Assembly: GCF_006345805.1 (NCBI RefSeq)
Contig: NW_021831286.1
Span: forward strand, 372,001-436,000
Source of the DNA: Octopus sinensis
Lineage: Eukaryota
Length of the DNA stretch: 64,000 bases
Direction of reading: 5' to 3'
In this document: in pieces, positions 16,657 through 56,609 of the stretch
Numbering within the stretch: position 1 is the first letter of the stretch
How the letters are laid out: the number at the start of each line of letters is the position of its first letter
Translations under genes and position numbers: made by a program
Notes under the pieces: generated by a model
Told to the model about the DNA's origin: nothing
The model's input: the letters and a program-made list of their open reading frames with translations, nothing else
The model's database searches: none

Positions 16657-17761
<1,105 letters not shown>

Positions 17762-18176: not shown

Positions 18177-18532
18177 TCATTCATTTTGTACAAAAGGGTT
18201 GGCAATCTCATCGAATCCATCAGAAGGGCAAATAAGCACAATTGCATTCCCACGACAGACAACAAGACCCAACTTTCTGACCTTTCCTGTCAACCGACCA
18301 GTGTCCTCTAAGTCCCTCAAATATTCGGTAGTATCATCCAAGACCAGGTTGAGGACATTGTCGTAGCCTTTTAAGATCCCAGTAACTAAAAAATAATATA
18401 ATTTAATGCCACCTTCCCGGCCTAATGTGAATTTAATTCGGACTGATTTGTCGACGTACCTGCTGAGGTCGATCACTGAATCTTTGCGTTTATCTTGACT
18501 CTATTTGGATAAATCGAGATACAACAAACCAT
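18177..18532 (-). CDS. LSM7: U6 snRNA-associated Sm-like protein LSm7
   Basis: DLSRYVDKSVRIKF.GREVTGILKGYD..LNLVLDD...LGLVVCRG...IANPF; 29- and 27-nt introns. Confidence 0.95.
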
Positions 18533-18741
18533 AACAAGATCAATGTGATTTTTATTTTTTTAATTTTGAATAAATGTTATTAAAAAATATAATTTATTAT
18601 TATATTAATTGATGAAAATTTATTAAATGATTAATATTAATAAAAATATTATAAATATTATTTTTTCCACTTTTTACTATTTATTTTAAAAATTATTTAA
18701 ATTTTTTTAAATAATAAAAAATAATAAATTATTTTTTAGCT
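18533..18741. promoter_or_regulatory. Very AT-rich divergent (bidirectional) promoter, LSM7/TSFM
   Basis: 209 bp of almost pure A/T between head-to-head ATGs. Confidence 0.6.
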
Positions 18742-19570
18742 ATGTTATCGTGTGTCTTTTCACGACACACAAAAAGAATTTTTTCTCAATCAAACTCACT
18801 CGATTCTTTAAAAAAATTACGAGAAAAAACAGGCTACAGCATTTCAGCTTGTAAAACAGCCCTCATAAATTCTAATTACGATTTTAACCAGGCAGAAAAT
18901 TGGATCGAATCCCAAGCACAAATAAAAGGCTGGGCAAAGACTCAAAAACAAATCCAATCAACTCAAGGATTGTTGGGACTCACACAAAACTCATCTGGAC
19001 TATATATACTCGAATTAAACTGCCAAAGTGACTTTGTGGCAAAGACAGCTACATTTCAGTCCCTTTTGATTCATCTTATGGAGTCATTTGTGTCTCGTTC
19101 TGATTCTTGTTTGTATAATCAGGATTTTGACCAGCTCATTTCTCCCCAAATTATTCGTCTCGGTGAGAATATAAAAGTAAAACAGACTTATTTTTTGCCC
19201 AAAATGAAGCATTCTGTTGGTATTTACACTCACGGTGGAGGTATATTTGATAAAGTAGTTTTCAGTTCTGGCGGAGGGAGTTGTCCTTCCACCGGGGACT
19301 GGAATGTCGAAATATGCGGGGATTGTGTGGTATGAAGAAGGGGATGGATATTTTCAGAGACCTGAGCAGTTGGGAAGGAATTTGGCTCAGCATGTAGTCG
19401 GGATGAGGCCAAGGAGGCTTGATTGTGGAAATGTGGATATTTCGGATTCCTTTTTGGGACAGAAATATCTCTTTGATGATGAGAAGACTGTTTTTGAATA
19501 TATTAATGATGTGGGTGTCAAGATTCTCGGTTTTAAGTATTTTGAAAGTGGAGGTTCTTCGTTTCCCTAA
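18742..19570 (+). CDS. TSFM: Mitochondrial elongation factor Ts
   Basis: LKKLREKTGYSISACKTAL, ELNCQSDFVAK, LGENI, GRNLAQHVVGMRP; a 22-nt intron near 19254 joins the two ORFs. Confidence 0.93.
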
Positions 19571-21077: not shown

Positions 21078-22596
21078 TCAAAGAATATTGTGACTACCCA
21101 TTTTTTTAGATCTGTCCATCTAAAAACATTCAAACTCACAGCCTAACTTTTGACTTATTTGAGCAAGTGATTGACCGAGTAGTCTACAATTATGAATATT
21201 AACACACAACCGAATGAAGAGAGAGGTGACTCGCAGCAGGAACCCGAGAAGGCAAGTTGTGGGACGCCTTCTTGAGAATTCTCTGCTCCTTACGACTCTT
21301 CCTTGTCTCCTCCAGAAGAATCCGCTCATTTTCCACAAAATCACGGAAATTCGTCTTCTGACCCTCCACAAACGCAATTAAATAAGAATCAGAAATGTCC
21401 TCGATCGAATACGACAAAATCTTGGCTTCCAATCGAGACAATTCCTTCTGAATCTTATTAGTCTGAGCTTGTTCCTTCAGCAAAATGCCCCCTCTGTTCT
21501 TTAAACGATCAGGGTCGGTAGATCTTTCATCAATTAGGATAAATTCTTCCCAATTCGTCTTCCATTTATTAACAAGTCCAGCCAAACTCGTAGCATTTTC
21601 CTTTATCTGTTTGACACGTGCCAATTTATCAAGAAGAAGATCTATTTCATCACTTTTTTGAATGTCCCCGACTGTGTAGTACTCCTCAATCTCAAAAAGC
21701 TTCACCAAATCATCCGATTCTGAGAGAATTGTCTCAAAAACACGTTCTTTCTGACTTTCCAACCGACACTTCAACCTTTCTAATAATCCAGACAGCCGAA
21801 AAATAATATTCTGAGACACTTTTCCTTCCACATCGATAGAAATATTTTCCACGCCACATCCAGCCAATTCTAACTTCCAATTGAGGTCCCAACATGCAGA
21901 AATAAGGTCTTGAATCCTCTCTTTTCTCGACAAAACCTCCTCTTCAAAACTCTGCAGACTTTCCAGACACTTTCTGAGGAATTGGGACGACAAAACCGGC
22001 GGATTTTCAACAAAAAACTCAGGAAGTGACACATCTTCAAGTTTGTTGACAAATTCACATATTTTTTGGAGATAAGACTGGTATATCGTCTCATTGGTCT
22101 CTACTTGAAGGGACAACTCGTCCACAAAGGCCTGGAGGTCGTTGATGTACTCAACTGACGGAATTCCGCCTGAATATTCACGGAATTGTTCTCTTTGGAG
22201 GATTTCGGTGTATTTTAGATGTTTTTCGTTTATTTTGTGAAAGTTGGACAGTCGGTGGTCTCTTTCTGTTTTCAGTCGCTCGTAGTATTCGTGGATGTGC
22301 TGGGATTGTTCGTATATCTTTGATTCTGGGTCCTCTGTGTAATCAAAGTCTATATTCAGATCTCTGGCGAGGGTCTCTGCCATAGATCTCATCTCTGACA
22401 TGTTATTCAGGAAGTTGGTCTTTTGATCGTTTTCGTTTTCGACAATCAGAACTAGTCGTGCTTTTAGATGGGCAAATAATCGAGACAATCTTTTATTTTG
22501 TTCGGCTTGGGGAAGTCCAATTGAATTCCAAATTTGATAGAGTTCTGAGATTATTTGTTTCGAGTTTAGCTCATCCTCAAAATTAAAGTCACACAT
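21078..22596 (-). CDS. PRC1: Protein regulator of cytokinesis 1 (MAP65/Ase1 family)
   Basis: ELYQIWNSIGL, coiled coil, DPDRLKNRGGILLKE signature; the last small exons are inferred. Confidence 0.9.
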
Positions 22597-22852
22597 CAAC
22601 AATGATATAATTGTATGGCTCCAATTTATTTTATAATAATAGAATTGGAATATTAATTAAAATTTAGATATAAATTATTAAAAAACACAAATTTACGAAA
22701 TCTTTAGAAATAATTTAATCATTTTTAATCTCTATGTTATTTTTAAAATTTATTTCTAAAATTAATTTATTATAATTTTTATAATTAAAAATAATATTAA
22801 TTAAAAAAATAATAATTTAAATAAGCAATAGTTAATCTAACAATTCTGTTCC
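22597..22852. promoter_or_regulatory. AT-rich divergent promoter, PRC1/PITP
   Basis: ~255 bp AT island between head-to-head starts. Confidence 0.55.
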
Positions 22853-24712: not shown

Positions 24713-25743
24713 ATTTCAACAATTTACAATTTTTGTTCCGAAGATCTCTGTAACTGGGAGAGTATTTCTTGGGCGTCCACGGAAACGAGGTCCCTCAGCT
24801 TCAAAATAGTCCTCCATAGCGGTGTTTGCCGTGTCTTCAAATCCATCCGATCTATCAGAATAGCTTCCACCTGCATGCTGTAATTTAGAGAGATATTGAT
24901 TTGCTTGATGTTCTGGTCTGAATTGTTTTACTGCTAAGCCTGAAATTGCCGAATCAAAAAGTCCGCATGTTCTAGAATTATAAAGGAGGATAGATTTCAT
25001 TAGTGAATTGTATAAGCAAATCCGTTTTATGTACTGAGTCTTTTTTACTTTAGCCAATCTTACTTTAGGTGGCGTAGTACGCTGTTTGCATGTTTTTTTG
25101 CATAACCACTTTTTGTCTGTTTCCAACCAGAAATACAAATTTCTTAACTTTTCTTCAATATTCGTCCAGATTAGACATATGTCTGACAAGTTTAGTCAAT
25201 TCTGTTTTTTCCACATTTACATTGAGGAACCACTCAGCAAGTTTATTTGGCATCACCTCCAATAGGCTTTCCAGAATATTTCAGTTGAAAAAAATGTCTC
25301 TCAATGCATCTTCCAGATATACGACAAACAGTATAGGAAAAAGCGAATCTCCTTAAAATGTTCCCAAAGTTGTTTCAAATGACTTTTCCCTGACCGATAG
25401 ATAGGTTTCTGATAGAGTACCCTATCATCCGGGTAGAAAATTTGTCAAAGAATTCTGTAAGGACATCAATCAATTTCTGACGATTGATCGAGTCAAAAGC
25501 TCTTGAATATCAATTACAAGAATGTTTGTCGCATTTTTTCTCACTTTTATGCTTAATTAGTTCTAGTCCTTATACTACTAGAGTTTTATCGTTTTTGAGC
25601 TTAGCGCAAGCTCTTTGACCTTCTTCAGAAGTTATTTCCAACTCCAATTTCCTGGGATGGTCAGTAAATACTGCAATTCCGTTGCTTTCTGATTTAAACA
25701 GTTTTTTGGCTGGCAATTAATTTTGCCGCAAAATCTGCAATTT

Positions 25744-28700
25744 GGGCTGACGGACAACTCGCCTACAGGCGAGTTGTCCTTGAACTCGCCAATAACAAGG
25801 ACGGACAACTCGCCTAGAAAGAAATGTATACTTGGGGTATTAAAATTTGTATTTCAATAGTCAAAATTTTGGACAACTATCTTTACAATAAGGATAGGGA
25901 CATTGACGAAAAATTGTCAATTGATATTTTATTATAGTTCAAATCGACGTTTTTTGTAAAAATAAAAATTGAAAAAATTCTATTTATGAAAAATTAATTT
26001 AAATTCTTCTTTTTGTTAAAATTTTTAATTAAATTAAATCCTAATAAATGGCTACAATTAAAAAGATATTAGGCCAAAGGAAGAGTGAGGTGGTATTTTG
26101 GACAACTATCTTTACAATAAGGATAGGGACATTGACGAAAAAAAGACGATATGGAGATGTCGGAAACGAACGTGTCGGGGGGCGTTAATTTTGGACGAGA
26201 ACAGCGAAGTCGTTGATAGAGTAGAGCAGTGGTTCTTAACCTTTTTTAAGTCAGCGCCCCCTTTTGACACAATTTCGAAGCTTCAAAATTTCAGCGCCCC
26301 CCTATTATTTAATTTATTTTTTTTCAATTATAGATTTATTTGGCAATTTTTTCGCCAATTGTTTCATTTTAATATTTTCGAATATTACTTATTATTTTTT
26401 TAGAATTAAAAAGGGTATTCACAAACCAAACTTTTTTATATAAAAAAATTTAGTGACTGCCTGTGCTTGATGGGAATTGTCAATCGTTTTATGTCAGCTT
26501 CAATAGTCGACAGACTTAGTCTCAAATCTCCTCTATTCACAATTTGTAATTTATTTCTTTTTTTGGTCAAAATATTAGAGACTGCACTAAATCCTCTTTC
26601 AACTAGATATGTTGAAGGAAATGCTATTATAAGTGTTTCAATTTCATTCCACAATAAAGGATATTTTTTTCTATGAGTAACCCAGAATTGTTGATATCCA
26701 TATTTGTTGAAAATGACTTTAGCTTCAAAGTCATATTTCAGATTTAATAAATTTTCTGTTATTTCTTGAGATAAATTAACGTTTTCAGTTTCAAATGGAT
26801 TTATATACCAATCAAAAAATTTTAAATTTTCTAAATCTTCAAAGCGGATTTTCATGTCATCTTTTAACATTTTTAGATGCAAGCAAAAGCATTCACAGTC
26901 AGAATCCGTTAATTTTTCGACCTAATAAATATTATTACAAAAAATAACCCCAAATTTTTGTAGATTTGGAAAATTAATAAAAATCTTTTTCTTAATATTG
27001 TTTTCATAAAGTTGTAATTTTTCAATAAAAGGCATAATAATCCTTTTACATTTATTAAATTGATATTGTTTCCTTGCAAGCTAATATTTACTTGGTTGAT
27101 TTTATAAAAAATATCAGCTAGATAAGCTATATCAGCTTTCAATAAAATCAACTTACTAAAATGATTAAGGAATAATTACCTAAAATTCTCTGCTCATGTA
27201 ACTGACAAAATTCTAAGATTGAATCATACAATTCAAAAAATCGACACAAACAGTTTCCTTTTGAAAGCCATCTAACATGGGTATGCAAAAGAAGTCGTTC
27301 ATAATGCTCATCGTTTTGTTCACAAATATGTCGAAATATTCTCGAATTCAATGGGTGCATTTTAATACGATTTATTGCACATATGACAACATTTAGTGAT
27401 TCATTCAGCCTCTCACTTAAATTTTTCGCAGCTAAATGCTGTCTGTGAATGACGCAATGGATTGTAAAAATATTCGGTACTTTTTCCTTCATATATGCCA
27501 AAACCCACGATGATGAACTCCAACCATCGCAGGTGCCCCATCTGTTGAACAAGCAAAAATATTGCTAAGGGGTATTTCATGTTTCAAAAAATATTGTTCA
27601 ACAGTTTTGAAAATTGTTAATCCTCTTGTATCGAGTTCAAGGTGTTCAGAAAATAAAAATCTTCTTGAATTACATCATTTTGATTAATATAACGTACGTA
27701 AACTAATAAAAGTGCAACACTATCGTTGAATGTCGATTCATCAATCTGAATTGAAAATTTTGTTGTTCTTAAAAATGCACATAGGGTTTCTTCGATATCA
27801 AATGCCATTTCATCAATTCTGGAAGAAACAGAACTATTACTCAAAGGAATTGATGAAATTATTTGTTCAGAATCACAATCAACCATTGAATTTAACACTT
27901 CTTTGATAGCTGGTAATATTAATGACTCTCCAATAGTATGAGGTTTTCCTGATTTCGCTATCAATTGCGATATTTGTATGATGCTAATAGCCTTTTTCAA
28001 GCATCTTCGAATTTTTTGTAAATAGTTGATTAATCATAAGACGATTTTCATAATTATATTTCAGATTAGAAAAATAATTGATATCCGCATCAAGTTTGTC
28101 AGGATGACAAATCTTAAGATGATTTAGCATTCTTGAAGGCTTCATTCCTTCATTTGTAAAGACCTTTTTACACATAAGACACATTGGAAGTGAATTGTTA
28201 TGGTCGTAGGGTATCACTCCAAACTTTAGGTATTCATCCGAATATATACGTCGTTTTACTTTTTTATCAGACATCTATAAAATATAATTAAAATATTTAT
28301 TAAAAAGTTCTAAAATATTAAATACAATTAACAAATATTTATAAATATTATCAGTGAATAATTTTTTTACGTACACACAAGACAATTTGAATTTAGAATT
28401 AATAGAAAAGCACGTGATAATGATTTACAAAAACTAATAAAATATTTATAATAATTAAAAAAAATTAAAATTCCAGCGCCCCCCTAATATGTTCCAGCGC
28501 CCCCAGGGGGGCGCCAGCGCCCCCGTTAAGAATCACTGGAGTAGAGCATAATCATCATCCAGAAGATGATAACTCAATCAAACTCCTCGAGGCTAAGCTG
28601 AACTGCGGAAAAAAGCAGCCGAGTCAATGGATAGGCCACTAAATGTTGTTGTGAATACAGTAGCGGCCTATTCAGCAGAAGTCAAAGGGAATCTCCCAAA

Positions 28701-28943
28701 GACACAATCAATGGCTAAGACTGTGACTCGAGTCAGAACAGAAGCATGCAAGTAACAGCTGTTACGAGATCTGATATTCCTGATGGCTGTAAAAAAAACA
28801 AACGTGGTGAAACGTTTTTTCGCAAAGATTCTGGAATCAATGACGTTAAACCCGACACGTCATTTTTGCTTCTGATTTTCAGCTTTGTTTTCTAAAAAAG
28901 TCGAAAATTTGGATTGTTGATGGAACATTTAAAAGTGTCCCAA
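25744..28943 (+). mobile_element. Mutator-like element (FLYWCH + MULE), 3'-truncated, split by a hAT
   Basis: Left end GGGCTGACGGACAACTCGCC with AACTCGCC repeats. ORF from 26048 reads YLYNKD...IWRCRKRTCRG | HNH (FLYWCH), then WIVDGTFKSVP. Confidence 0.85.
26227..28538 (-). mobile_element. hAT (Buster/Charlie, ZBED5/SCAND3-like) transposon, near full length
   Basis: TIRs CAGTGGTTCTTAAC / GTTAAGAATCACTG; 8-bp TSD GAGTAGAG (nnnTAnnn). BED finger, FSIQIDEST, HCVIHRQHL, VRWLSKG, FPSTYLVERGFS. Frameshifts fall mostly in homopolymers. Confidence 0.95.
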
Positions 28944-30120
28944 TGATAGAGTACCCTATCATCCGGTAGAAAATTTGTCAAAGAATTCTGTAAGGACATC
29001 AATCAATTCTGACGATTGATCGAGTCAAAAGCTCTTGAATATCAATTACAAGAATGTTTGTCGCATTTTTTCTCACTTTTATGCTTAATTAGTTCTAGTC
29101 CTTATACTACTAGAGTTTTATCGTTTTTGAGCTTAGCGCAAGCTCTTTGACCTTCTTCAGAAGTTATTTCCAACTCCAATTTCCTGGGATGGTCAGTAAA
29201 TACTGCAATTCCGTTGCTTTCTGATTTAAACAGTTTTTTGGCTGGCAATTAATTTTGCCGCAAAATCTGCAATTTGTCTTCTATTTTCGTCTTTTAGTAC
29301 CCTCCATTATCCTCAGAACTGTATCTCTGTCTCGTTCATTTACAAAAAGAAACGCAATTTTTGATTATCTTTTTGATGTTTGTTCTTTCGCGGCCAAGAT
29401 TCTTTTAGATGTAGTAGCCAAATATATTCTTCTTTCTTCATAAGGAGTGATATCTCAGTTGTTCAGCTGACAATTTTGTGTATAGTTGTCTGTCCGTTGC
29501 TCCTCGTATTTTTTCAGAGCTTTAGAATTTGTTGACTTATTTGACGCTTGTTGACATGACCGTCGAGTTTTCTCCTCCTGTAAATATCACATGTCTCTTT
29601 GGTATTTGTTTTGTTTCTGTTTAGATGTTTATTCGATAAAATTCCAGCCATTTCGTGATTACTGTCAATAATTGACATCCCATTGCATCGGTAAAAAATT
29701 GTCTGTCTTTAAATCGACCGATTATATAATCAATCTGGTTGTATATGTTTATAAATTCGCAGCAAAAATTCTTTCTACACCATTTCCATGTGGTTGAATG
29801 TGTATTAGGCTGCATAAATGCGATTTTACATATGAATAATCCGTTTTCATTACAAAAATTGACTTTTCAATTTTCCCGCAACACTCCGTATTCCTCGTTC
29901 CTTTTTTCCGTGAAGGTTTCATTCAATTTTGTTTTTATTTCCATGTTAGAGTTAATGTCGTCAGTGATGACAGTTATTGAAGAGTGTACAAGTTCAAAAT
30001 AAAATTCAGAAAGATAGTTTTTAGGTGAATTTAAATGTGATAAATTTCAAAAAATGTAATAATTTTGTACTTTTTATTGTATAAATAAATGTATTTATTT
30101 TTGTAATAAATTTTAATGCA

Positions 30121-30867
30121 ATGGAGCCACCTGATAATTTAAAATGTTTCTACTTTGACCACACAATTGACGGTAAATACCCAAAATATACATTACCCAA
30201 AGGAGTAGAAAGTGTCCCCTCCATGCTGAAAGAAAACCTCAACAAAATTAAAGAATTTGACCTACAAGTGGAGAGTAATCACTAAACTAACAAATCAGCC
30301 ATTCTAAGTGAAATCCGTAAAGAAACGGAAGAACTGCTCTCAAAAATGAGTGACCTGTCCGAAGAGAAGAAGAATAAAGCAATCGACCAAATAAACAGCA
30401 AATACAACAAAGCAATCAAAATATCCGACAAAAAAGTATCACTCTCCAAAAAAACATACGAAAAAGTAATTTATATATATATTGTTGGTGGATAAACATA
30501 TAATCCAACTCGATCAGGATTTAGTCAAGTTTGAAGGCCTTTTGAACACTTCTGAGACAATTCGCCCCTCTGAGAAAGAGCACGTGAATGAGAGTGGTGG
30601 GGGACCCTTAAAGTGGATTGTGTAAAAGTAGTTAAGGAAGGACCTCAAATCCACGCCTGACTATTTGGACATGCCAGTGGATCCCAACGAGCCGACTTAC
30701 TGTGACTGTCATCAGGTGTCGTATGGGGAGATGATTGGCTGTGATAACCCTGAGGTAGTCACGTTTCTTTAGTTTAGTGTCCCGTTGAGTGGTTTCATTT
30801 TGCCTGTGTTGGACTGACTACTAAACCCAGAGGCAAGTGGTTTTGTTCCAGGTGTTCTAAAAAGTGA
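30121..30867 (+). CDS. ING4: Inhibitor of growth protein 4/5 (PHD finger); absent from the ORF track
   Basis: Spliced ...[20 protein letters not shown]...[55 protein letters not shown]; five introns. Confidence 0.93.
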
Positions 30868-31000
30868 TTTTCTGTTTATTTCTTGCTGTTTACTTTAGTT
30901 TTATTAAGTGTCCACATCAACCTAGTAATGATTGAAACATTTTATTTTAAATTTATTAAAAAGGATTTAAAAAATTAATGTTTATTTATAAAAAAAATAA

Positions 31001-31623
31001 TTATTTAATCATTTTATGTAAAAGAAGACGGTTTGTATTCTTCCGAGTTGACTTGGCCTTCCTTAGAGTACAGAGTGTTGGAGGCTGGTGGACAACTTCG
31101 CCAAACTCAACCTTGTCTATCTAATGTCATCAATTTAATTACACCAGAAAAAATTTCTCTTTTTATTTCCGAATATTTTTTATCGATATTTTTAATATCT
31201 TTTTTAAATTTATTTTTGTTTTTTATATATTCTGTTTTATTCTTGCTAACCCAAATAAGAATAAAATGTACGTTTTCCCTTTTGTTCGTTTCTTGCTCAT
31301 AATGTCAATGTGTGTCTAATAAAATTAAAATTACCCAAACCTGAATTTTATTTTCCATTTCTACACAATCTTTATAAAGTTCAAGTTCCTCGTCCGACTC
31401 CAATAAAACGGGAGAAGGCTTATTTATTTCTAGTTATTAGAAATAGTCACTGTGCCTTTCTTTTCCACGTTTTTATGTTTGGTGAAAGCTCTGGGTTCCA
31501 TGTTTTTACGCATTTCATTGAGTTTTTGGGGTATCTTTTGATCTATTTTAAGTTATTTTTTAAATAATATTTGCCAATATTCTGAATATTATTTATTTGC
31601 TTCCGTTTTGTTTTTTTAGCCAT
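31001..31623 (-). CDS. CCDC137: Coiled-coil domain-containing protein 137-like; absent from the ORF track
   Basis: Spliced K-rich protein with QKIPQKL and DKVEFGEVVHQPPTL; five tiny introns, the first being GC-AG. Confidence 0.75.
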
Positions 31624-32768
31624 GACGCCACACCAAACTTTGAGACACGTTTTATTAATTTTATTAATAAATATTGATAAATTTAATATTATTTTATTAA
31701 AAATAAACTAATTAAAAACACGGCAACCTACCCTGTGTCGCTATTGGGAAGAGAGATGGAGTGGCCTTCATTGTTTAAAACAGGGGTGTCAAACATACGG
31801 CCCTCAGCGTATTTTGGCAAACATAAGTGCGTTCTGATTTAATGGCTATCATACAATTTTTCGTAGGTATTAAGTTGTCTATTACCAAGAAGGTCCAATG
31901 CGTGTTTCAAAGCTAAATGAATTGCGAAAAAATTAATTTGGGTTACAGACTCATTTCACAAAAAGTCATGTACTCCAACGCCCACTTGTTTAAAGATATT
32001 TCATTAGCAAGAAATACTGTTGCCGAACATATTAATGAAATGGCATTGAATTTAAACACCAATTAAATTCTGATTTGTTAAAATTCGAATATTTTTCAAT
32101 CGATGAAACAGTCGTTGGAATTGCACAATTAGCAATCTTTGTTAGAGCCTGTGATTCAGATTTTAATATTTATGAAGAATTTCTCGAACTCAAAGATATT
32201 AAAGATGGAAAATACCATTAGTTTGGTCAACCACCGGCAGTTTAGTAAACTGCTGACAGATATTAATAATCAGTTCAGCGACATTCCTTTTTATGCTCCA
32301 GTCCGCTGGTTATCACTTCACAAAGTTGTTAAATGATTTTATTTGTTGAGATCGGAAATAATTTTATTTGTTGAGATGAAAGGGCAAAACACAGACGAAA
32401 TGAAAAGTCAATCTTGATCAAAGATTTGGCATTTGCAGTGGATATTACCACATATATGAACGACCTTAATTTAGAATTGCAGGGTAAAGACAAGCTCATA
32501 ACTCAGTTATCAGATCACATCAAGTGTTCTATTTCGAAAATAAAATTTCAGCTATTAAATGAAGATTTATTTCATTTTCCTACGTGCTAAGACCTCAGGA
32601 GTACTGTTGATGAACATAATGTAATGAATTTTTGTCTGAACTACACGAATAGCTCACCCTGACATCTCAAAAATTATATTTTAAAAGATTTCATCCTCTC
32701 GAAGCAGCTCTCACCAAAATTAAAGGGCGATGATTGAATAATTTAGTTTCTCTTATTTTGGTTATTAG

Positions 32769-34375
32769 TAGGGCAATTTGTTTCTAGCACTTAAAAAAAA
32801 TTTTTAGCGCTAAATCTAGCATTTATAATTAAAAAAAATTAGCACTTAAAATGATCAAATCTAGCATTTAAAATTGTAAAATCTACAACTTAAAATAATA
32901 AAAATTTATTTATTTAAAAACCAAGAGCACCGTCAGGCCAGAAAACAAGATTAATTAGGTGATTCCGACATTCCCAAACACTACGCATCCTCTTTCTGTG
33001 TTCGATATGATCCCCAGGCCGCCAAAATAATAAAAATAACATTTAAATTTTATCTCCGTTAATTTCAACTTAATATCGGGATTATTTACATGATGTTAGC
33101 ATTTGATACTAAAACTCTATCTGACTGAAATGCGTTAACAATTTCACAAATAATATTTCGCTGCTTTAAACCAACTTCCCCATCTGCATAAATTAAGAAA
33201 AAGAATACCTAGTAATTATGACATCAGGTGGGTATCCAACATCCTTGAACAAATTACGACGTCTTCGGTTTTTTACTGTGGCAGCTTTAATGCTTGCAAT
33301 TAAGCCATCTATTTCCGGCTATGCAGACTTTATACGTAAAACCGTATTGTGTAACAAATGAGAAACACAAGTCACATGATGCATGTTGTTATACATGACC
33401 ATTAAAGTTTTACCGCCTATTTATTTAGATACTTTTATATCACCAGAAATCATATAAGGAGCGGCATCTGAGATTAACAGATAAAATTGTCACAATAATC
33501 TTCATTTCTCTAATGACGTCATCTATTATTTGGCAGATGATAGCAGCATTGGCACGATTTTCCAGTGGTTTGCATTCAACCAAATAGGATTTTGTTGGAA
33601 GCGAATGCTTCCAATTAGAATCACTACAAAACTTTTCCTTCGGATATCTGTTTCATCAATTAAAAAATAAACTTTAATACGTTAATAATTTTGTCAACTC
33701 ATTTATCTTTTTTTTGGCAAGAAATTTAACCGTAGTTCTGCATGAAAATTCGGACGGAGTGTAAATGTTAAATGTTTTAAACATTTTTTTGATCGAATCA
33801 TTTTTTAATTTGTATAGCGGATGTTTGCTTGTACAAAAGCTTCCGTGATCGTTTCTTTAACCGAATCTACTTTGATTAATTCAGTTAATGTTGTTTGAAC
33901 TGAATCACATGAATGACCTACAATTACATTTATACGCATATTGTTCTGATGTTTTAAAGAAGAACGATGAGAATCGACTGAAAATTTTTTTGCACAGTTG
34001 ACTTTGGATAAACAAGAGAACAAAATAGAAGGCCATCGTCAGCAATACAGAACTCATCTTTGAATTCTGAGACTATACGCTTGGCTTTCTTAAGCAACGA
34101 ACACTTGGTTTTGGCATCACTCAAAATACTATATAGCCTGTTAAATTATTTTATTTAAATTAATTTATTATCATTTTATGGGTGGCATTAAAAAAATTTA
34201 AATGCAATTTAAATTAGCATTAAAAAAAAATTAGCATTTAAAATTACAAATAGCATTTATAGCATTTATAATGTATGTTTTTTTTAACAAAATTAAAAAA
34301 TAATTATTCCAATTCAATTTTATATTAAAAAAATATAAAAAGTAAAAATAGCATTTTAGCACTTAAATTGCCCTG
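32769..34375 (-). mobile_element. Nested hAT of the CGGBP1/hAT19-like group
   Basis: Ends TAGGGCAATTT / AAATTGCCCTG; many TAGCAYT subterminal repeats; LIDETD, LISDAAPYM, HVTCVSHLLHN, PPDVIITRWGSW. No TSD found. Confidence 0.8.
32906..33023 (-). mobile_element. 118-bp 5'-truncated LINE insertion
   Basis: Ends ...VGIT* + CGGTGCTCTTGG + (TAAA)n; 14-bp TSD AAAATAATAAAAAT. Confidence 0.75.
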
Positions 34376-35859
34376 TAAAATTTTTTTTGTATTTTTAAAT
34401 CGTGTTTGTTAATGTCACGTGCTTCTTCTGGAATAAAAAAGAAACGGTGCTGGAAAGATGAACGGAGAGTGTTTCAAAATAAATGGGAACTTGTCTGTTT
34501 TTGCACACATTGTTTGATATTTAACAAGTTTATTGCTATATCGAAAGAATACAACCTAAAGAGGCATTATCAATCTAATCATCTATCATACAATTATTTC
34601 GAAGGTATTAAGTTGTCTATTAACCAAGAAGGTCAAATGCGTGTTTCAAAGTTAAATGAATTGCGAAAAAATTAATCTGGGTTACAGACTCATTTCACAA
34701 AAAGTCATGTACTCCATTAGTCACTGCAAGCTATGAAATCAGCAGAATGCTTGCAGTAAATGGAAAATCATATTGTGATGGTGATTTCATCAATGCCTTG
34801 TAAAAACAGCGAATATTATTTGTCCAGACAACGCCCACATGTTTAAAGATATTTTATTAGCAAGAAATACTGTTGTCGAACACATCAATGAAATGGTACC
34901 AATGCACGATACTACTACAAGTAAAGATATCTTTATAAAACTACTACAAATTCTCTTTGAATATGGGTTTGATTTGAAGAAGCTTGTATGTTTATGCACT
35001 GCTCCGAATATGGTTGGACGACATGCTGGCGTTGCCGCTAAATTGCGAGCTGAAATAGAAAAGGTAAATCCCGGGTCATCATTTGCTCATTTTCATTGTA
35101 TTATTCATCATCAGCAATATTTGTCTTCAAAGATATTAAAAATGGAAAATACCATTATTTTGGTCAACCACCGGCATTTTAGTAAACTGCTGACAGATAT
35201 TAATAATCAGTTTAGCGACATTCCTTTTTATACTTCAGTCCGCTGGTTATCACATCACAACCACACCTATGAACGAACTTAATTTAGAATTGCAGGGCAA
35301 AGACAAGCTCGTAACTCAGTTGTTAGATCATATCAAGTGTTTTATTTCGAAAATAAAATTTCAGCTATTAAATGAAGTTTTATCTCATTTTCCTACGTGC
35401 TAAGAGCTCAGGAGTACTGTTGATGCACATAATGTTATGAATTTTTGTATGAACTACACGAATAGCTCAGCATGACATCTCAAACATTATATTTTAAAAA
35501 AGATGTCAATCCTCTGGAAGCAGCTCTCACCAAAATTAAAGGGCGATGATTGAATAATTTAGTTTCTCTTATTTTGGTTATTCGTCATAATAAATATCAG
35601 AATTAATCTTCCCTTAATGAGAAATTATAATAAATGCGGCCCTCGAAGCGAAATGAGTTTGACACCCCTGGTTTAAAATAACAAAGCATTTGTTATTGAA
35701 TTAATGATCGATAATACTAATCCACAATCGCATTAAATATCATCAAGTGTATTTCCCAATAACTATTGTCAAGGATGATAAAATTGACAAAGTCTATTAT
35801 AAATCTCAATGTTGAAACCGCCACTCTTTCGTTTCCAAATCGAACTACCGCTCCAGGAA

Positions 35860-42244: not shown

Positions 42245-43288
42245 TCAATATTCCACATTGAGAAAACGTCTTGTATTATCCGACATTCGAATAGCGTTGA
42301 TAACAGCACTAGTATTGCCCATATCAATAAAATTAGGAATGTTCTCATTTGCCTGGTAAGTAATTTTGCGTTGTTCTTCATTATATATAAACATGTCATA
42401 TAAAGAGTTGGTCATATTCGATAAACACAAATTGAATTCTTCCGAGTCAGTTCGAACACACCGTCTGCTCAGACACGTTTCTTCACTTTCCCCATAAATC
42501 CACCGGAAAAGATTATTTCCACGAAGAGATAAATACCCACGTGACCCCGAAACTATAAACTCCAGATTTGACACTTTCGACTCCAAAAAAGCAGAAATTG
42601 TGACAAAAACGTGAAGATCAGTGTCCATAACCATCTCAAACGTCGCCATCGTGTCAGAATGGACAACTTTTTGTCTCAACAGACTTCCGAATACTTTGAC
42701 AGGTTTCCCGGCAATAATATAGCCAACAATATCGATGATATGACTAGCATGTATATTAAGGACTCCTCCACCCATGGATGTCTCACATTTCCAGTCATAT
42801 CGAGAATTACTCACAAAGGTGTGACAACTGAGGGTGACTCGAATATAAAGAGGGTCCCCCACATCGTCCAAGTGATCTCTGAGGAGAGTGATGGAGTCGT
42901 CAAATCGGTAGGGATTGAAGGGCATGGAGAGTAGTTGAGGGTAGTACTCCCCTGCCTCCATTATACCACTCATTTCCAGTCGGTCAGGACTCGCACAAAA
43001 ATTACAAATCACGTGTTTGCCTATACTGACTGCTCTGGTTGAGATGGGGATTAGAAAGTGAGGGGCAGTGAAGACTATGATTAGATCAATGTCTTTTCTT
43101 ATTATTACTTCGTCGTAGTCGTCGGAGTAGAATGGAATTGACAATTTCTGGGCCAGGTTTGAGGCAGTTGCCAAGTCTTTGTCCCACAGGGCAGTGATCG
43201 AAAAATGTTTGGAACGCAATATATTTATTAAATATGTCGTGAATGATTCAATTCCGAATATTCCAACCATTATTTTGTACTTCTTCAT
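42245..43288 (-). CDS. GFOD1: Glucose-fructose oxidoreductase domain-containing protein (GFOD1/2), intronless
   Basis: Gfo/Idh/MocA fold: VGIFG, IGKHVIC, YYPQLLS, YDWKCETSMGGGVL. Confidence 0.85.
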   Translation of the reverse strand: MKKYKIMVGIFGIESFTTYLINILRSKHFSITALWDKDLATASNLAQKLSIPFYSDDYDEVIIRKDIDLIIVFTAPHFLIPISTRAVSIGKHVICNFCASPDRLEMSGIMEAGEYYPQLLSMPFNPYRFDDSITLLRDHLDDVGDPLYIRVTLSCHTFVSNSRYDWKCETSMGGGVLNIHASHIIDIVGYIIAGKPVKVFGSLLRQKVVHSDTMATFEMVMDTDLHVFVTISAFLESKVSNLEFIVSGSRGYLSLRGNNLFRWIYGESEETCLSRRCVRTDSEEFNLCLSNMTNSLYDMFIYNEEQRKITYQANENIPNFIDMGNTSAVINAIRMSDNTRRFLNVEY

Positions 43289-43519
43289 GTTATCCACAAG
43301 AACTTGTTAATAATACAAAAATTTATTTTATTTAAAAATAATAAAAATATTTTTTATTCAATAGTTAAAAATTTAAATATTAAATACTGTGAATTAAAAT
43401 ATAATTTAATACTTGAGTGTTTCTATAATTTCTAAATATAAATGACACTCTTATTAAAGATAATAAATTTTTGTAATATAATTATTTTTATTTTATTAAT
43501 CAAAAAAGTGGATCAATAT

Positions 43520-44640: not shown

Positions 44641-46463
44641 CAGTCGGACCTCGTTATGAGCCAGACCTCGGGTATGATCCATACTCGCTTTATGATACAA
44701 ACTCTATTTTTGAGCCACGTTTTTTGAAACTGCTTTTTTCCTAAGGGGTTTGTAAAAATCAATTAAAAATAGACCTCGTTATGAGCCATCTAAAAATTGC
44801 TATAAACTAAATATTTTGTAATATAATTATTTTTATTTTATATATTTTATCGTTTATTTTAAAGAATTTTTTCCTTGTCACGTTGTTATCTTTGTTGAAG
44901 TATTTTCCACTGTTCTATGTTTTCTAGATGCCTAAAATGAAAATTGATCACGAAAAAAAACTCGAAATAGCCCAATATATTAATCGGAACCTGCTTTCAG
45001 AGCGCAGAATTGCGGAAATTTTCAAAGTTAGCAGGGCTACATTTTCACGTATAAAAAAAGATTTCCCTTTTCTTGATAATGGAACTATTTATTCTGATTT
45101 ATCCGAGCAAACTAGTGATTCTGAAAAGCTTAAAAATCTCGATCTTAAAGTTTTCGAAAATTTTTCACAAATTGCGACTTGAAAAAGTTCCCTTATCTGG
45201 ACCGACCATTAAGAAAATTGGGTCGATGGTCGCTTCAAAATTATCATTGAATAATTTCAAATCGTCTAATGGTTGGCTTCAAAGATTCAAGAAACGACAT
45301 AATTTACAATACAAAACATTGTGTGGTGGAAAGGGTTCCGCAGATACATCTATGCTCCCTCATTTTTTCCAAGAATTAGATACAAAAGTTGTTTATTATG
45401 GTAAAGAAAATGTATTTAATTGCGACGAAACTGCACTTTATTTCAAAAATACACCAACTAAGTCATTTGTACAATGTGGTGAAAATTCGTTTGGTTTTAA
45501 GCAGCACAAGGAAAGGGTTAGCCTGCTTTTATGCTGCAGTTATCTTGGAGAGAAACTGGAGCCTTTAATTATCGGCAAATATCGAAACCCTCGGTGCTTA
45601 AAACAATTCAATCCTGATGTTTTTAACGTCATGTACTCTTCTTCTAAAAATTCGTGGATGACAACTGAAATTTTTAAAAGCTGGGTTTTTTAATTAAATA
45701 CCAGAATGCTTTCTGAAAACCGAAAAATATTAATGTTGTTGGATAATGCTAGTTTTCATAGACTATCCGATTATTCAAACATTGAATTTTTATATTTACC
45801 TAAAAACACTACATCGTTAGTTCAGCCATTGGATATGGGCATAATTAAAGCACTGAAGACAAATTACAGTAATTTATTTATCGAATTCGTATGCATTTGT
45901 GAAAATAGAAGCAATTTTTTGGAAGCAATCAAAAGTCTCAATTTACGGAATGTGATGCAACTAATTTCTGAAGCCTGGGCCAATGTAACTTCAAATCAAA
46001 TTCAAAATTGTTGGAAAAAAATTTTTGAGTGTAGATGGGAGGAAACAATAAATATCAATTCGAAGATTCATACGGACGTGACAGAAATGGTGAACGAAGT
46101 CTTTGTCGAAGAATTGCTTGTAAGCGAAATAAATTTTTATAATGGGCCTGAATCAACAGACATCATAGATCCACTGACTCTTATTAATAATATGGAGGAA
46201 AATATATGCAAACTTTCTCCAGAATTATTAAATGATTTTTACGCCCTAAGGAAAAAAATAATGATTAATTTACGGGATAAAAATCGTTTTGGAGAAAAGA
46301 TTACGCATTATTTCAAAAAATTATAACTTATGAACTGTTTCTATCTGTTTTTGTGAACTATTTTTTACTTAAAGTACTGTTAATTAGGATTATTAGCGAA
46401 CCTCGGTTTATGATACAACCTCGGTTTATGAGCCACCAAGTGGCTCAAACCGAGGTTCGACTG
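44641..46463 (+). mobile_element. Tigger/pogo transposon, full length
   Basis: TA TSD; TIRs CAGTCG(G/A)ACCTCG...TGAGCCA; CCTCGGTTTATGA subterminal repeats; SNGWLQRFKKRH, FNCDETAL, LLDNASFH, QPLDMGII. One frameshift and one in-frame TAA. Confidence 0.95.
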
Positions 46464-50488: not shown

Positions 50489-52771
50489 ATGGAAACTAGT
50501 GATGTGTGTGCACTTTCGAGTGATCCGATTATAGCACCACGAAGACCAAATAATATCAAAAGATTATCAAATTCAATAATTGATAAAATAGCCGCAGGAG
50601 AGGTTATACAACGTCCTTGTAATGCAGTTAAAGAACTGCTAGAAAACAGGTTTACTGCTCATTAAGCAGATCAAAGTGTCGACTCTGGAGCCACATCTAT
50701 AACCATAGTCATCAAAGAGGGCGGTCTTAAGCTAATAAAAATAACCGACAACGGAAGTGGCATACAATTCAATGACATGCCAATTGTATGTGAAAGATTC
50801 ACCACCAGCAAAATAAGCCAACTCGAAGACCTCCTGAATCTGGGAACGTTGGGATTCCGCGGAGAAGCCCTTTCTAGTGTTAGTCAGGTGGCCCACGTGA
50901 CTGTCATTTCCCGCACAGCAACCGCGGAAAGTGCTTATCGGTAGGGGAGGAAATTAGTTTTGGCAGAGGGGAGTATTTGGAGGGAAAATTATGTGGAAAA
51001 GTCAACATTTGCGCGGGAAATCTCGGGACATCGATTATTGTTGAAAATAGGCTAAATAGAATAGGTTGAGGACCTGTTTTTTAATGTCCCCATGAGACTG
51101 AAGATTTTACGGAATTCCGCGGAAGAGTTCAACAAGATTTACTCATTTGTGTCAAAGTAAGGACTGTTAACTCACACAGATATGCCATTCTGCACTCCGA
51201 ACTGGCTATTTGTCTGAAAAAGGTGTGTTGTGCATTAATCCTAGAACGATGAGACAGTCCTGCAAACTCCCGGTGAAAGTACCGTCCTCGACAACCTGGG
51301 ACTTGTATTTGGAACCTCCACGTTGAAAGATTTGACTCCCGTGAGTGGAGGACCGTCTGAGGAGTCATCCATTTCGGAGACCAAATTTACATTTTCTGGC
51401 TATTTTGCCAACACAAGTTATTCTGGGCGTAAAAATATAAAAATATTTTTTGTCAATTCTCGTTTGGTGGAGATCCCCAAATTGAGGAGACTGATTGACG
51501 ACTTTTACGCCCCCTTACTAACAAAAAAGTCATTTCCCTTTGTCTACTGCTCGTTTGACGTTTAATTCTGACTTTTCAGAATTCACGTGTCCAGACACTG
51601 TGTGGACGTGAATGTACATCCATGCAAAGAAAACGTTCAGTTCCTGTTTGAAGACGAAATTCTGAACGAAATCAAACAAGCCATGGAAACAGAACTCATT
51701 CACGGCGAACAAGCGGCTTCAAGGCTCTTCTTCACTCAAAAACCATCCAAAGTATTCAGCTCTCGTATTTTGTGTTTATTGATGAATGTAGCTCTCATCA
51801 ACCGTTCGTCCAATTCCCAAATATTTGACCGTTCTGACTGTCGGTCTACCAAACTGGATGGTTTCGTGTCCTTAAACAAGTCAACTTCGAGTTTGCCGAC
51901 GTTTCCTGTCATAAAAACGCAATTTCCGTCCGTAAAACGAAAAATGAATCAACCCAGTCCCCAGGAACCCCCGAAACCACGATTGGAAACAAACAAGATT
52001 CAAGTTGATGAAGAAGACTGTCCTACTGAATTGTCGAGTGTTATTGAACTGCAGAATGAATTCAAAAATCAAAGAGAGAAGGGTGGGGTGTACTGTAACA
52101 CTGTAGATCTAACTGAGGTGATTAGTTCATGCACGTTTGTGGGCACTGTTAATGAGAAATATTCTCTTATTCAGCATAAAGAGTCGTTGGTTATGCTGGA
52201 AATGAGGGTTCTCAGTAGAAATCTGTTCTATCAACTTATTTTGGATAATTTTGGGGATTTTGAGTCCTTTAATATTCCAGTTTATTGTGGATTGTACACT
52301 CTTTAGAATCCTCCCCTCATTTCCCATTTGACCATCGACGACGCAGAGGACGTCAGTCAATTGCTGAGTGAAAAGTCCGCAATGTTGCTTGATTATTTTT
52401 CTGTGCAAATTGACGAAGGGAAACTGCTAACTTTGCCTGTTCTCATCCCCTCGTACACTCCTCCAATGAAACTGCTGCCCGTGTTTGTGAGGAACATGGC
52501 GAGAGAGGTCTTGGATGTGGAATATTAGTAGGTTGATTGGCAGAATGAGAAGCAGTGCTTTTCCTCGATTGCTTCTGTTTTTGCTGATTTTTATGCACTG
52601 TCTAATGCTCAAGATTACACGTCTGAGAATTTTGATATTGCACATTGCGTTGAGTTCTGTCTACTTCCTTATTTGAGAAGGAAATTCGTGCCTGGCGGAT
52701 CGGAGATAAGGGCTGCCTTTACCATGTTGACTCAGCTCTCTGATCTGTACAAGCAATTTGAACGCTGTTGA
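50489..52771 (+). CDS. MLH1: DNA mismatch repair protein MLH1
   Basis: [51 protein letters not shown]-terminal LYKQFERC*; about 10 introns of 22-27 nt. Confidence 0.97.
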
Positions 52772-52840
52772 GTTTTGTTTTGCTGGTTTGTTGTTGTTGA
52801 AATTTAAAGTTTTTATGCCTTTTGGTTCAAAGTTTGTTAA

Positions 52841-56428: not shown

Positions 56429-56609
56429 TAAGTTTTATTTACAGACAAATAAACTACTTTAAAAAGTTTATTGATTGGGGCAAATAACCATCAGGAACAA
56501 AAATATTATTTCGAAACATTTTTTCATTTATCATTAATTTATAATTTTTTTTTTGTTTTTTTTTTAATTTGTTTATAAAATTTAAATCCAGGAAATATTG
56601 TATTCTGAT

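What the first reader, a model, noticed from the sequence alone, without database searches (positions are those of the whole stretch)
26227..35670. Three different hAT families also carry ~25-nt introns: tiny-intron colonisation of the mobilome
Seen: Buster element, GT-AG segments 27156-27179 (24 nt; needs one extra G to keep frame) and 26922-26948 (27). hAT19-like element, 33184-33208 (25 nt, splitting the conserved TR|W) and 33417-33443 (27). SPIN-like element, 34605-34631 (27, in frame, weaker). Known: Buster/SPIN transposase ORFs are usually uninterrupted. Inference: introns are being gained de novo in transposases, either because almost any AT-rich GT..AG ~25-mer is spliceable or because splicing helps TE transcripts pass host surveillance or export. 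This would be a tractable system for intron birth.
Basis: partly seen in the sequence, partly recalled or inferred. Interest (0 to 1): 0.75.

Follow-up and report, generated by a model that had tools for sequence, protein, structure and literature searches.

The report
Parasite transposons inherit tiny gained introns
Three cut-and-paste transposon families here carry 23-28-base GT-AG inserts that their outside relatives lack; these are likely spliced introns of the tiny size normal for the likely owner of this DNA, a dicyemid parasite assembled along with its octopus host, and they were likely gained rarely and long ago and then inherited, which would make them a natural record of how introns arise.

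Summary
All five segments are at the stated coordinates. The 'extra G' is unnecessary: the window copy lacks a T present in 13 of 14 copies.

Removing them gives a 592-aa Buster and, with two further segments, a 458-aa hAT transposase of homologue length. The in-frame, stop-free SPIN segment is the weakest case. Splicing was not observed.

The contig likely belongs to a dicyemid inside an octopus-labelled assembly. Host genes have 22-29-nt introns, and a second, long-intron MLH1 sits on a chromosome. The tiny size is therefore a known trait.

Gain is likely but mostly old. Hat positions 141 and 222 are shared by 7 of 7 families that are only 37-61% identical, and position 62 by 6 of 7. Two other hAT radiations on such contigs are almost intron-free, as are outside and chromosomal relatives.

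'Any GT..AG 25-mer is spliceable' fails: 344 such pairs lie inside intact coding frames. A splicing benefit is unsupported.

The scan reported this theme before on other DNA of this genome (at least ten notes). New variant of a known kind; interest 0.5.

The parts
26227..28538 (-). Buster-group hAT element of a very young family, inserted in a MULE/FLYWCH-like fragment (label recalled); 8-bp target duplication at 26219-26226 and 28539-28546
   Evidence: 7 of 14 near-full copies have 0 substitutions from the majority; perfect 8-bp TSD in 11 of 14
26450..28274 (-). Buster transposase gene, three predicted exons, 592 aa in the intact copy L006; the window copy has single-base losses
27156..27179 (-). 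predicted intron B1, 24 nt, phase 2, residue 366, in-frame TAA
   Evidence: 76 of 91 homologues match the spliced length, none the unspliced; present in 14 of 14 copies
26922..26948 (-). predicted intron B2, 27 nt, phase 0, residue 435, ends in an in-frame TAG
   Evidence: present in 14 of 14 copies; variable loop, homologue lengths -6 to +8, none +9
31781..35670 (+). composite of two deleted SPIN/GTF2IRD2-like copies with a hAT between them, bounded by SPIN-like inverted repeats and an 8-bp duplication (31773-31780, 35671-35678)
31867..31892 (+). second copy of the SPIN segment (26 nt) in the first deleted SPIN copy
34605..34631 (+). candidate intron S1, 27 nt, phase 1, in frame, no stop, AAG acceptor, GAAGGT repeated at both junctions
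   Evidence: 9-residue insertion against P0122; empty site with one GAAGGT in chromosomal relative L327; present in 30 of 30 copies, 20 nt long in 7
32769..34375 (-). internally deleted copy of a small hAT (458-aa transposase, DUF659-like), inverted repeats starting TAGGGCAATTT; family copies have 8-bp TSDs
33184..33208 (-). predicted intron d, 25 nt, phase 2, residue 291 (TR|W); found only in this family
   Evidence: 29 of 29 homologues match the spliced length; absent from the other families
33417..33443 (-). predicted intron c, 27 nt, phase 1, residue 222, in-frame TAA; position shared by 7 of 7 families of one clade
33662..33680 (-). remnant of predicted intron b (28 nt in the family, phase 2, residue 141); position shared by 7 of 7 families
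33918..33935 (-). predicted intron a (23 nt in the family, 18 here, phase 1, residue 62); position shared by 6 of 7 families (one not covered)
50489..52772 (+). host MLH1 gene with nine predicted 22-27-nt introns (context: shows the organism's intron size)
   Evidence: 686-aa open frame after removal; second MLH1 on contig C1, 59% identical, shares a boundary but has long introns
16657..17713 (-). host cyclin-dependent kinase gene (part) with seven predicted 22-28-nt introns (context)
   Evidence: open kinase frame after removal
18177..18532 (-). host LSm7-like gene (name recalled) with predicted 29- and 27-nt introns, the latter in frame and stop-free like S1 (context)

Best explanation
Three hAT transposon families carry 23-28-nt GT-AG inserts absent from outside relatives; these are likely ordinary spliceosomal introns of a likely dicyemid parasite, likely gained rarely inside that lineage and then inherited as the families split. 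Shown: the inserts, their fit to homologue length, the same size class in neighbouring host genes, two organisms in the assembly, and positions shared across deeply diverged families. Inferred: an intron-free element entered the parasite lineage. A short AT-rich piece inserted into the coding sequence, probably during repair of a DNA break and mostly after a G or AG. In most animals such an insert would kill the element, but a spliceosome that accepts 22-30-nt introns with little more than GT and YAG removes it, so the element stays active. Because these elements copy as DNA, the intron is passed on. The most deeply branched hAT lineage carries 3-4 introns; two shallower radiations carry 0-1.
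For: Homologue-length tests. In-frame stops or frameshifts in 6 of the 7 segments. Host genes with 18 introns of 22-29 nt. A second MLH1 and a second Pax6-like gene with long introns elsewhere in the assembly. A Pax6 (best PDB match PAX6) on contig C9061 with tiny introns in phases 0, 1, 0, as described for Dicyema Pax6 (PMC2222250); contig C12762 holds both a tiny-intron Pax gene and a 95%-identical copy of the window's hAT. Close copies lie on small contigs: the only chromosomal match is one weak 66-base hit among 46, 44 and 42 matches. Relatives lack the introns: 0 of 63, 0 of 77 and 0 of 77 metagenome loci at residues 141, 222, 291; the chromosomal hAT rows nearest in the trees; 15 chromosomal Buster-like loci; the SPIN empty site in L327. 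Intron-bearing hAT families form one side of a branch in three trees.
Against: No transcript evidence was obtained. Support for the intron-bearing clade is weak (SH 89; 72/86; 80/83) and its stem is short for three gains, which leaves an older origin open. The metagenome search favours uninterrupted matches and I allowed introns only up to 250 nt; 4 of 60 loci had a 33-nt in-frame call within two residues of position 62 (phase 0, distant subfamily). Whether the outside proteins come from DNA or spliced RNA is mostly unknown. No source sequence was found: the tandem-duplication test was negative (1 of 37 at p<0.05), and mean junction repeats are like those of host introns (1.76 against 1.50 nt). 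A chromosomal intron-free Buster (L147) nests between two families sharing intron 195.2, so loss or parallel gain also occurs. The dicyemid assignment is indirect; no dicyemid sequence was compared.
Confidence: 0.7

Rival explanations
1. The hAT introns at 62/141/222 are ancestral: an unsampled transposon subfamily already had normal-length introns there, and they shrank with the rest of the parasite's introns, as host-gene introns did.
For: Three positions appear together on a short, weakly supported stem, and crown families are as far apart (37-45%) as from outside homologues. The host MLH1 shares a boundary with the chromosomal MLH1. Intron loss dominated in plant CACTA transposases (PMC4158355, abstract and discussion part 1). 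The metagenome search is biased to uninterrupted genes.
Against: No outside locus has an intron at 141, 222 or 291, three close ones having both inverted repeats. No outside row falls inside the clade. It does not explain the family-specific introns 291.2, 326.0, 88.1, B1, B2 and S1.
Confidence: 0.17
2. Gain is ongoing and fast because nearly any AT-rich GT..AG 25-mer is spliced, or because splicing helps transposon RNA pass surveillance or export.
For: AT-rich YAG-ended cryptic pairs are scarce in coding frames: 7 observed against 13.8 in codon shuffles (p about 0.04), and 2 against 6.5 in intron-free families. Transposon introns are more AT-rich (0.86) than host ones (0.71).
Against: No precise presence/absence among copies. 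344 unspliced GT..AG pairs. Intron density of 0.5-2.9 per kb is below that of host genes (4.4-8 per kb here; about 5.4 from PMC6736024 Table 1). Intron-free families are multi-copy with whole frames. All segments are net insertions, not exon sequence turned intron.
Confidence: 0.08
3. The SPIN segment alone is a translated 9-residue insertion (IKLLINQEG) and not an intron.
For: In frame, no stop, uncommon AAG acceptor (4 of 37), and conserved at 21 of 23 bases in a sister family 77-79% identical.
Against: Exact GT..AG ends at host-typical length; a host gene has a like in-frame, stop-free 27-nt intron; the 20-nt variant keeps G(T/C)..AG ends in 7 of 7 copies, though those copies are defective; two other hAT families 79% identical keep their tiny introns equally conserved.
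Confidence: 0.25
4. The segments are assembly errors or decay of dead copies.
For: The assembly has many homopolymer indels.
Against: Same segments in all copies covering them; a copy with 0 differences from the family majority gives a full 592-aa frame; the same codon positions recur with unrelated sequences in other families.
Confidence: 0.01

Closest known systems
Dicyemid and myxobolid ultra-short spliceosomal introns (PMC13644364, parts 1-2 of 3 read; PMC6543705, PMC2222250, PMC6736024, passages)
   Same: GT-AG, 22-30 nt, reduced splice signals; Dicyema median 27 bp; D. japonicum lives in octopus renal sacs and its genome is 49% repeats.
   Different: Those papers describe host genes, with ancestral positions where examined; the passages seen do not mention introns in transposases. 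Here the positions are absent from outside homologues.
BuT2, hAT Tip group of Drosophila (PMC3942097, passages)
   Same: hAT transposase split by introns, several near the host's short size (about 60 nt by the listed exon coordinates), splice sites conserved between species.
   Different: Another hAT group; introns of normal animal size; no map of gains across families in the passages seen.
Intron gain and loss in plant CACTA and mariner-like transposases (PMC4158355, abstract and discussion part 1)
   Same: Intron positions shared by transposon clades and inherited; occasional gain; cites the idea that introns hinder horizontal transfer.
   Different: Loss prevails there from an intron-bearing ancestor; here the sampled outgroups are intron-free.
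Daphnia neointrons from staggered double-strand breaks (PMC4202315, abstract and outline only)
   Same: AT-rich inserts without an evident source; parallel gains at one site are common there.
   Different: Daphnia gains are recent and polymorphic with clear repeats; these are fixed within families and repeats are at most suggestive (6 nt at B1 and S1).
Introners (PMC9860276, PMC12130899, search listings only)
   Same: Link between transposons and intron gain.
   Different: Introners are mobile introns with many similar copies; these introns are unrelated to each other and sit inside the transposase.

Membership tests
hAT superfamily, Buster group (element 26227-28538) | short terminal inverted repeats and 8-bp target duplication (PMC3942097) | tested here: met
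   CAGTG ends; perfect 8-bp TSD in 11 of 14 copies
hAT superfamily, Buster group (element 26227-28538) | central TA in the target site (recalled) | tested here: met
   9 of 11 perfect TSDs; two rows share flanks
hAT superfamily, Buster group (element 26227-28538) | transposase related to Buster/ZBED8/SCAND3-like proteins | tested here: met
   915 homologues, 51-62% identity among those listed, apart from the identical record P0001; nested with P0003 and P0005
SPIN/GTF2IRD2-like hAT (element 31781-35670) | transposase related to GTF2IRD2-like / SPIN-DOC-like proteins; 8-bp TSD | tested here: met
SPIN family in the strict sense (Space Invaders) | high identity to the SPIN consensus | not tested
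   no reference sequence at hand
hAT superfamily (element 32769-34375) | inverted repeats, 8-bp TSD, hAT-type transposase | tested here: met
   TIRs and TSDs in family copies; homologues match DUF659 below its cut-off; no PDB hAT match for P0243
hAT19 group | clustering with reference hAT19 transposases | not tested
Dicyemid-type ultra-short spliceosomal introns | GT-AG ends, about 30 nt or less, removal restores a conserved frame | tested here: met
Dicyemid-type ultra-short spliceosomal introns | removed from the mRNA | not testable with these tools
Dicyemid-type ultra-short spliceosomal introns | owner is a dicyemid | tested here: inconclusive
   tiny-intron bilaterian (Pax6) in an assembly whose proteins are labelled Octopus sinensis; likely, about 0.9, but no direct sequence comparison
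Introners | similar intron sequences at unrelated sites | tested here: not met
   the 37 introns printed are mutually unlike except between near families; same-position pairs score no higher than different-position pairs (5.1 against 5.6); not searched genome-wide

The most novel reading that the evidence does not exclude
In this parasite, DNA transposons work as an intron clock and a trap: each intron-free invader slowly gains 23-31-nt introns in step with its residence time (0-1 in shallow radiations, 3-4 in the deepest), and once gained these introns, unspliceable by ordinary animal spliceosomes, lock the element to the parasite and block transfer to the host unless they are lost, as the intron-free chromosomal Buster nested among intron-bearing families may show.
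Probability: 0.3. Interest if true: 0.75.

Novelty: new variant of a known kind. Interest (0 to 1): 0.5.

Why it matters
How new spliceosomal introns arise is still open. Transposase families with intron-free outgroups give gains whose direction and order can be read on a tree, and a young, apparently intact Buster element with two such introns allows direct tests. If tiny introns stop elements from working in other animals, they would be a simple barrier to horizontal transfer between a parasite and its host. In practice, these genes are annotated as octopus proteins with truncated or mis-joined models, a warning for users of that annotation. The components are known (tiny dicyemid introns; introns in hAT and CACTA transposases), and the scan has noted the theme repeatedly, which caps the surprise.

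Tried and rejected
No RNA holder was listed for the region, so no reads were laid; this says nothing on expression.

A search for a full-length, near-identical spliced protein of the hAT family returned one 50%-identical protein. Cluster members of the Buster and SPIN models did not span the junctions informatively.

Tandem duplication of flanking exon as intron source: negative. Intronisation of existing exon sequence: rejected for five segments because homologues have the spliced length.

Stop-codon reassignment: rejected, because homologues lack the residues, three hAT segments shift the frame, and host genes end at standard stops.

Outside protein fragments ending at TR(291) looked like an intron signal, but 4 end before the first Trp and 3 before the second, which fits nonsense changes at Trp. 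The 20-nt SPIN subfamily as proof of splicing: rejected, since these copies share a stop and large deletions.

Dicyemid-specific primers were not in the passages read. A myxozoan or protist owner is disfavoured by Pax6 (bilaterian-limited per PMC2222250).

The first host-intron feature table had one of 18 introns mis-set; it was corrected, but the AT and repeat means quoted come. The mixture-model tree did not finish (one search gives the quick tree); no AU test was run.

In-print searches for introns in dicyemid transposons and in Buster transposases listed nothing on point. Supplements of PMC6736024 and PMC13644364 were not read and may bear on this; Ogino et al. 2010 was seen only as cited.
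Full report
OBSERVATION. The five segments are in the window as described, each GT..AG. Own-genome searches gave 46, 44 and 42 matches for the Buster, small-hAT and SPIN-like elements; the only one on a chromosome-scale contig is a 66-base, 80% hit (only the best 40 candidates were scored each time). Fourteen near-full Buster copies show that the window copy lacks a T just before the 24-nt segment (13 of 14 have it), so no extra G is needed. Copy L006 has no difference from the majority and gives 592 aa after removal of the 24- and 27-nt segments. The family is very young: 7 of 14 copies have no substitution and 11 of 14 have a perfect 8-bp target duplication, 9 of them with central TA.

INSERTION TESTS. 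For B1, 76 of 91 full-length homologues have exactly the spliced length between anchors, 9 have one more, 5 fewer, 1 has an internal duplication, and none has the unspliced length. B2 lies in a variable loop (-6 to +8, none +9) and rests on its in-frame TAG. The small hAT has four segments (23, 28, 27, 25 nt at residues 62, 141, 222, 291). Removal gives 458 aa against 453-472 in 29 homologues, and for the last three all 29 match the spliced length; the first lies in a variable loop. The majority sequence ends in a probable homopolymer frameshift near the C-terminus. S1 is a clean 9-residue insertion against P0122 (67% identity, no gaps when removed); 59 of 60 homologues are within 0 to +2 of the spliced length and the other is unrelated at that place. 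S1 is in 30 of 30 copies, shortened to 20 nt in 7. No copy covering a junction lacks its segment precisely.

WHOSE DNA. Near-identical proteins are labelled Octopus sinensis by their source, but the window is gene-dense. Its MLH1, CDK and LSm7-like genes read through only after removal of 18 GT-AG segments of 22-29 nt. A second MLH1, 59% identical, lies on contig C1; it shares an exon boundary but has long introns. A Pax search found long-intron genes on chromosomes and on one microsatellite-rich small contig, and tiny-intron genes on other small contigs. L227 is Pax6 by its best PDB match, has a homeodomain, and its paired- and homeodomain introns have phases 0, 1, 0 as in Dicyema Pax6 (PMC2222250 passages). 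Contig C12762 carries both a tiny-intron Pax gene and a 95%-identical copy of the window's hAT. Among 51 animal genomes only myxobolids and Dicyema japonicum have such introns (PMC13644364), and D. japonicum was collected from this octopus species (PMC6736024). A dicyemid owner is therefore likely (about 0.9, inferred), and intron size is its known trait.

HISTORY OF THE hAT INTRONS. I fetched 60 loci chosen by hand from 150 matches to the small hAT and aligned them, with the family majority, to a profile by a spliced aligner. GT-AG gave 98 calls piled on four positions (222.1 x28, 141.2 x22, 351.1 x15, 62.1 x14); four decoy signals gave 30-58 calls, at most 8 on one position, and lower scores. 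Seven families, 37-61% identical, share 141.2 and 222.1, and six share 62.1 (one copy does not reach it; one call slides to 63). Their intron sequences are no more alike than introns at different sites. Further introns are confined to sub-branches: 351.1, 326.0, 88.1, and 291.2 in the window's family alone. Six other families on small contigs form two well-supported radiations with no intron, except one 31-nt candidate at 145.0. The intron-bearing families form one side of a branch in three trees with weak support (SH 89; SH 72/bootstrap 86; bootstrap 80/SH 83), with no outside row inside; two intron-free chromosomal copies are nearest or among the nearest. These trees used 16-31 of the 61 genome rows. 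Among 80 metagenome loci, 0 of 63, 0 of 77 and 0 of 77 spanning residues 141, 222 and 291 have an intron of 17-250 nt. Four of 60 have a 33-nt in-frame call near 62 in another phase, and 1 of 62 has a call near 351; three close loci have both inverted repeats. That search favours uninterrupted genes.

BUSTER AND SPIN RELATIVES. Two other Buster families on small contigs have introns at 110.1+195.2 and 92.1+195.2; the window's family has 366.2+435.0 only. None of 15 chromosomal loci has a tiny intron; one has three adjacent 37-42-nt calls that mark an insertion. The window's family nests with outside proteins lacking both inserts, and an intron-free chromosomal family nests between the two 195.2 families, which needs a loss or a parallel gain (quick tree). 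For S1, a chromosomal relative 70% identical in DNA shows the empty site with a single GAAGGT, which flanks S1 on both sides; a sister family on small contigs carries the homologous insert. Four of those six bases are forced by an AG|GT site and the splice signals, so this only suggests a duplicated target.

The spliced frames of 13 families (17,775 nt) hold 344 GT..AG pairs of 21-31 nt, 15-22 per kb in the three families here, which must be kept. Only 7 end in YAG and are at least 80% AT, against 29 of 37 transposon introns and 2 of 18 host introns; codon shuffles give 13.8 (p about 0.04). So 'any GT..AG' fails, the narrow AT-rich class may indeed be avoided, and AT richness is not required in host genes. 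Density is 1.1, 2.9 and about 0.5 introns per kb in the three transposases, against 4.4-8 in the three host genes and about 5.4 in D. japonicum. Intron-free families with whole frames of 448-619 aa and several copies occur on the same kind of contigs, so introns are not needed for success; a benefit is untested.

MECHANISM. Most likely (0.7): rare insertion of short AT-rich DNA, mostly after G (24 of 37, not independent) or AG, tolerated because this spliceosome removes 22-30-nt introns, then inherited because the elements copy as DNA. Break repair is the inferred source, by analogy to Daphnia (PMC4202315, abstract); no source sequence was found. The main rival for the three shared hAT positions is shrinkage of older introns (0.17). 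S1 may be translated (0.25, independent of the rest).

COMPARISON AND VERDICT. Introns in hAT (BuT2, PMC3942097) and CACTA transposases (PMC4158355) and tiny dicyemid introns are known. That Buster and SPIN frames are usually uninterrupted is recalled, and agrees with the intact frames on chromosomes. My searches found no paper on introns in dicyemid transposons. The scan's earlier notes report the same theme in other pieces of this genome; my reading was recorded before I saw them. New variant of a known kind; interest 0.5.

Noticed in passing
L147 = G000:C2:145863000-145866400: An intron-free, decayed Buster copy on a chromosome-scale contig nests (SH 97/99) between two small-contig families sharing intron 195.2: parasite-host transfer with intron loss, or parallel gain.
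   Followed up: partly
L327 = G000:C10:45005300-45007900 and L328 = G000:C6:65233000-65235600: Chromosomal SPIN-like copies 66-71% identical in DNA to the parasite family, far closer than other families in the assembly (48-53%): possible old exchange between host and parasite.
   Followed up: partly
window 31781-35670: Two differently deleted SPIN-like copies and an inverted hAT share one pair of outer inverted repeats and one 8-bp duplication; the hAT copy lacks its own target duplication, suggesting an adjacent deletion or nested rearrangement.
   Followed up: partly
window 25475-25744 and 29007-29276: A perfect 270-bp direct repeat brackets the MULE-like fragment that holds the Buster element; 25849-25898 also recurs at 26089-26138.
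   Followed up: no
L228 = G000:C12762:386988-390383, L232 (C8591), L237 (C9300): Further divergent Pax genes with tiny introns on small contigs, one Pax6-like with a homeodomain; more than the single Pax6 described for Dicyema in the passages read.
   Followed up: no
window 54746-56434 (-), 45055-46326 (+): A 562-aa reverse-transcriptase frame without interruption and a Tigger/pogo-like frame (label recalled) broken only by one stop: natural intron-free controls.
   Followed up: no
window 42245-43306 (-), 21199-22656 (-), 18718-19570 (+): Long uninterrupted host frames (oxidoreductase-, PRC1- and EF-Ts-like; names recalled), so intron density varies widely among host genes.
   Followed up: no
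window 30119-30870 (+): ING-like PHD-finger gene with several apparent 22-30-nt introns.
   Followed up: no
L209 = G000:C12463:178100-180600: One hAT copy shows a local duplication at intron 222.1 giving two adjacent intron-like segments of 33 and 17 nt.
   Followed up: no
P0001, P0391, P0392, P0121, P0393, P0394: Public gene models of these elements are labelled as octopus proteins and are cut at, or jump over, the tiny introns.
   Followed up: partly
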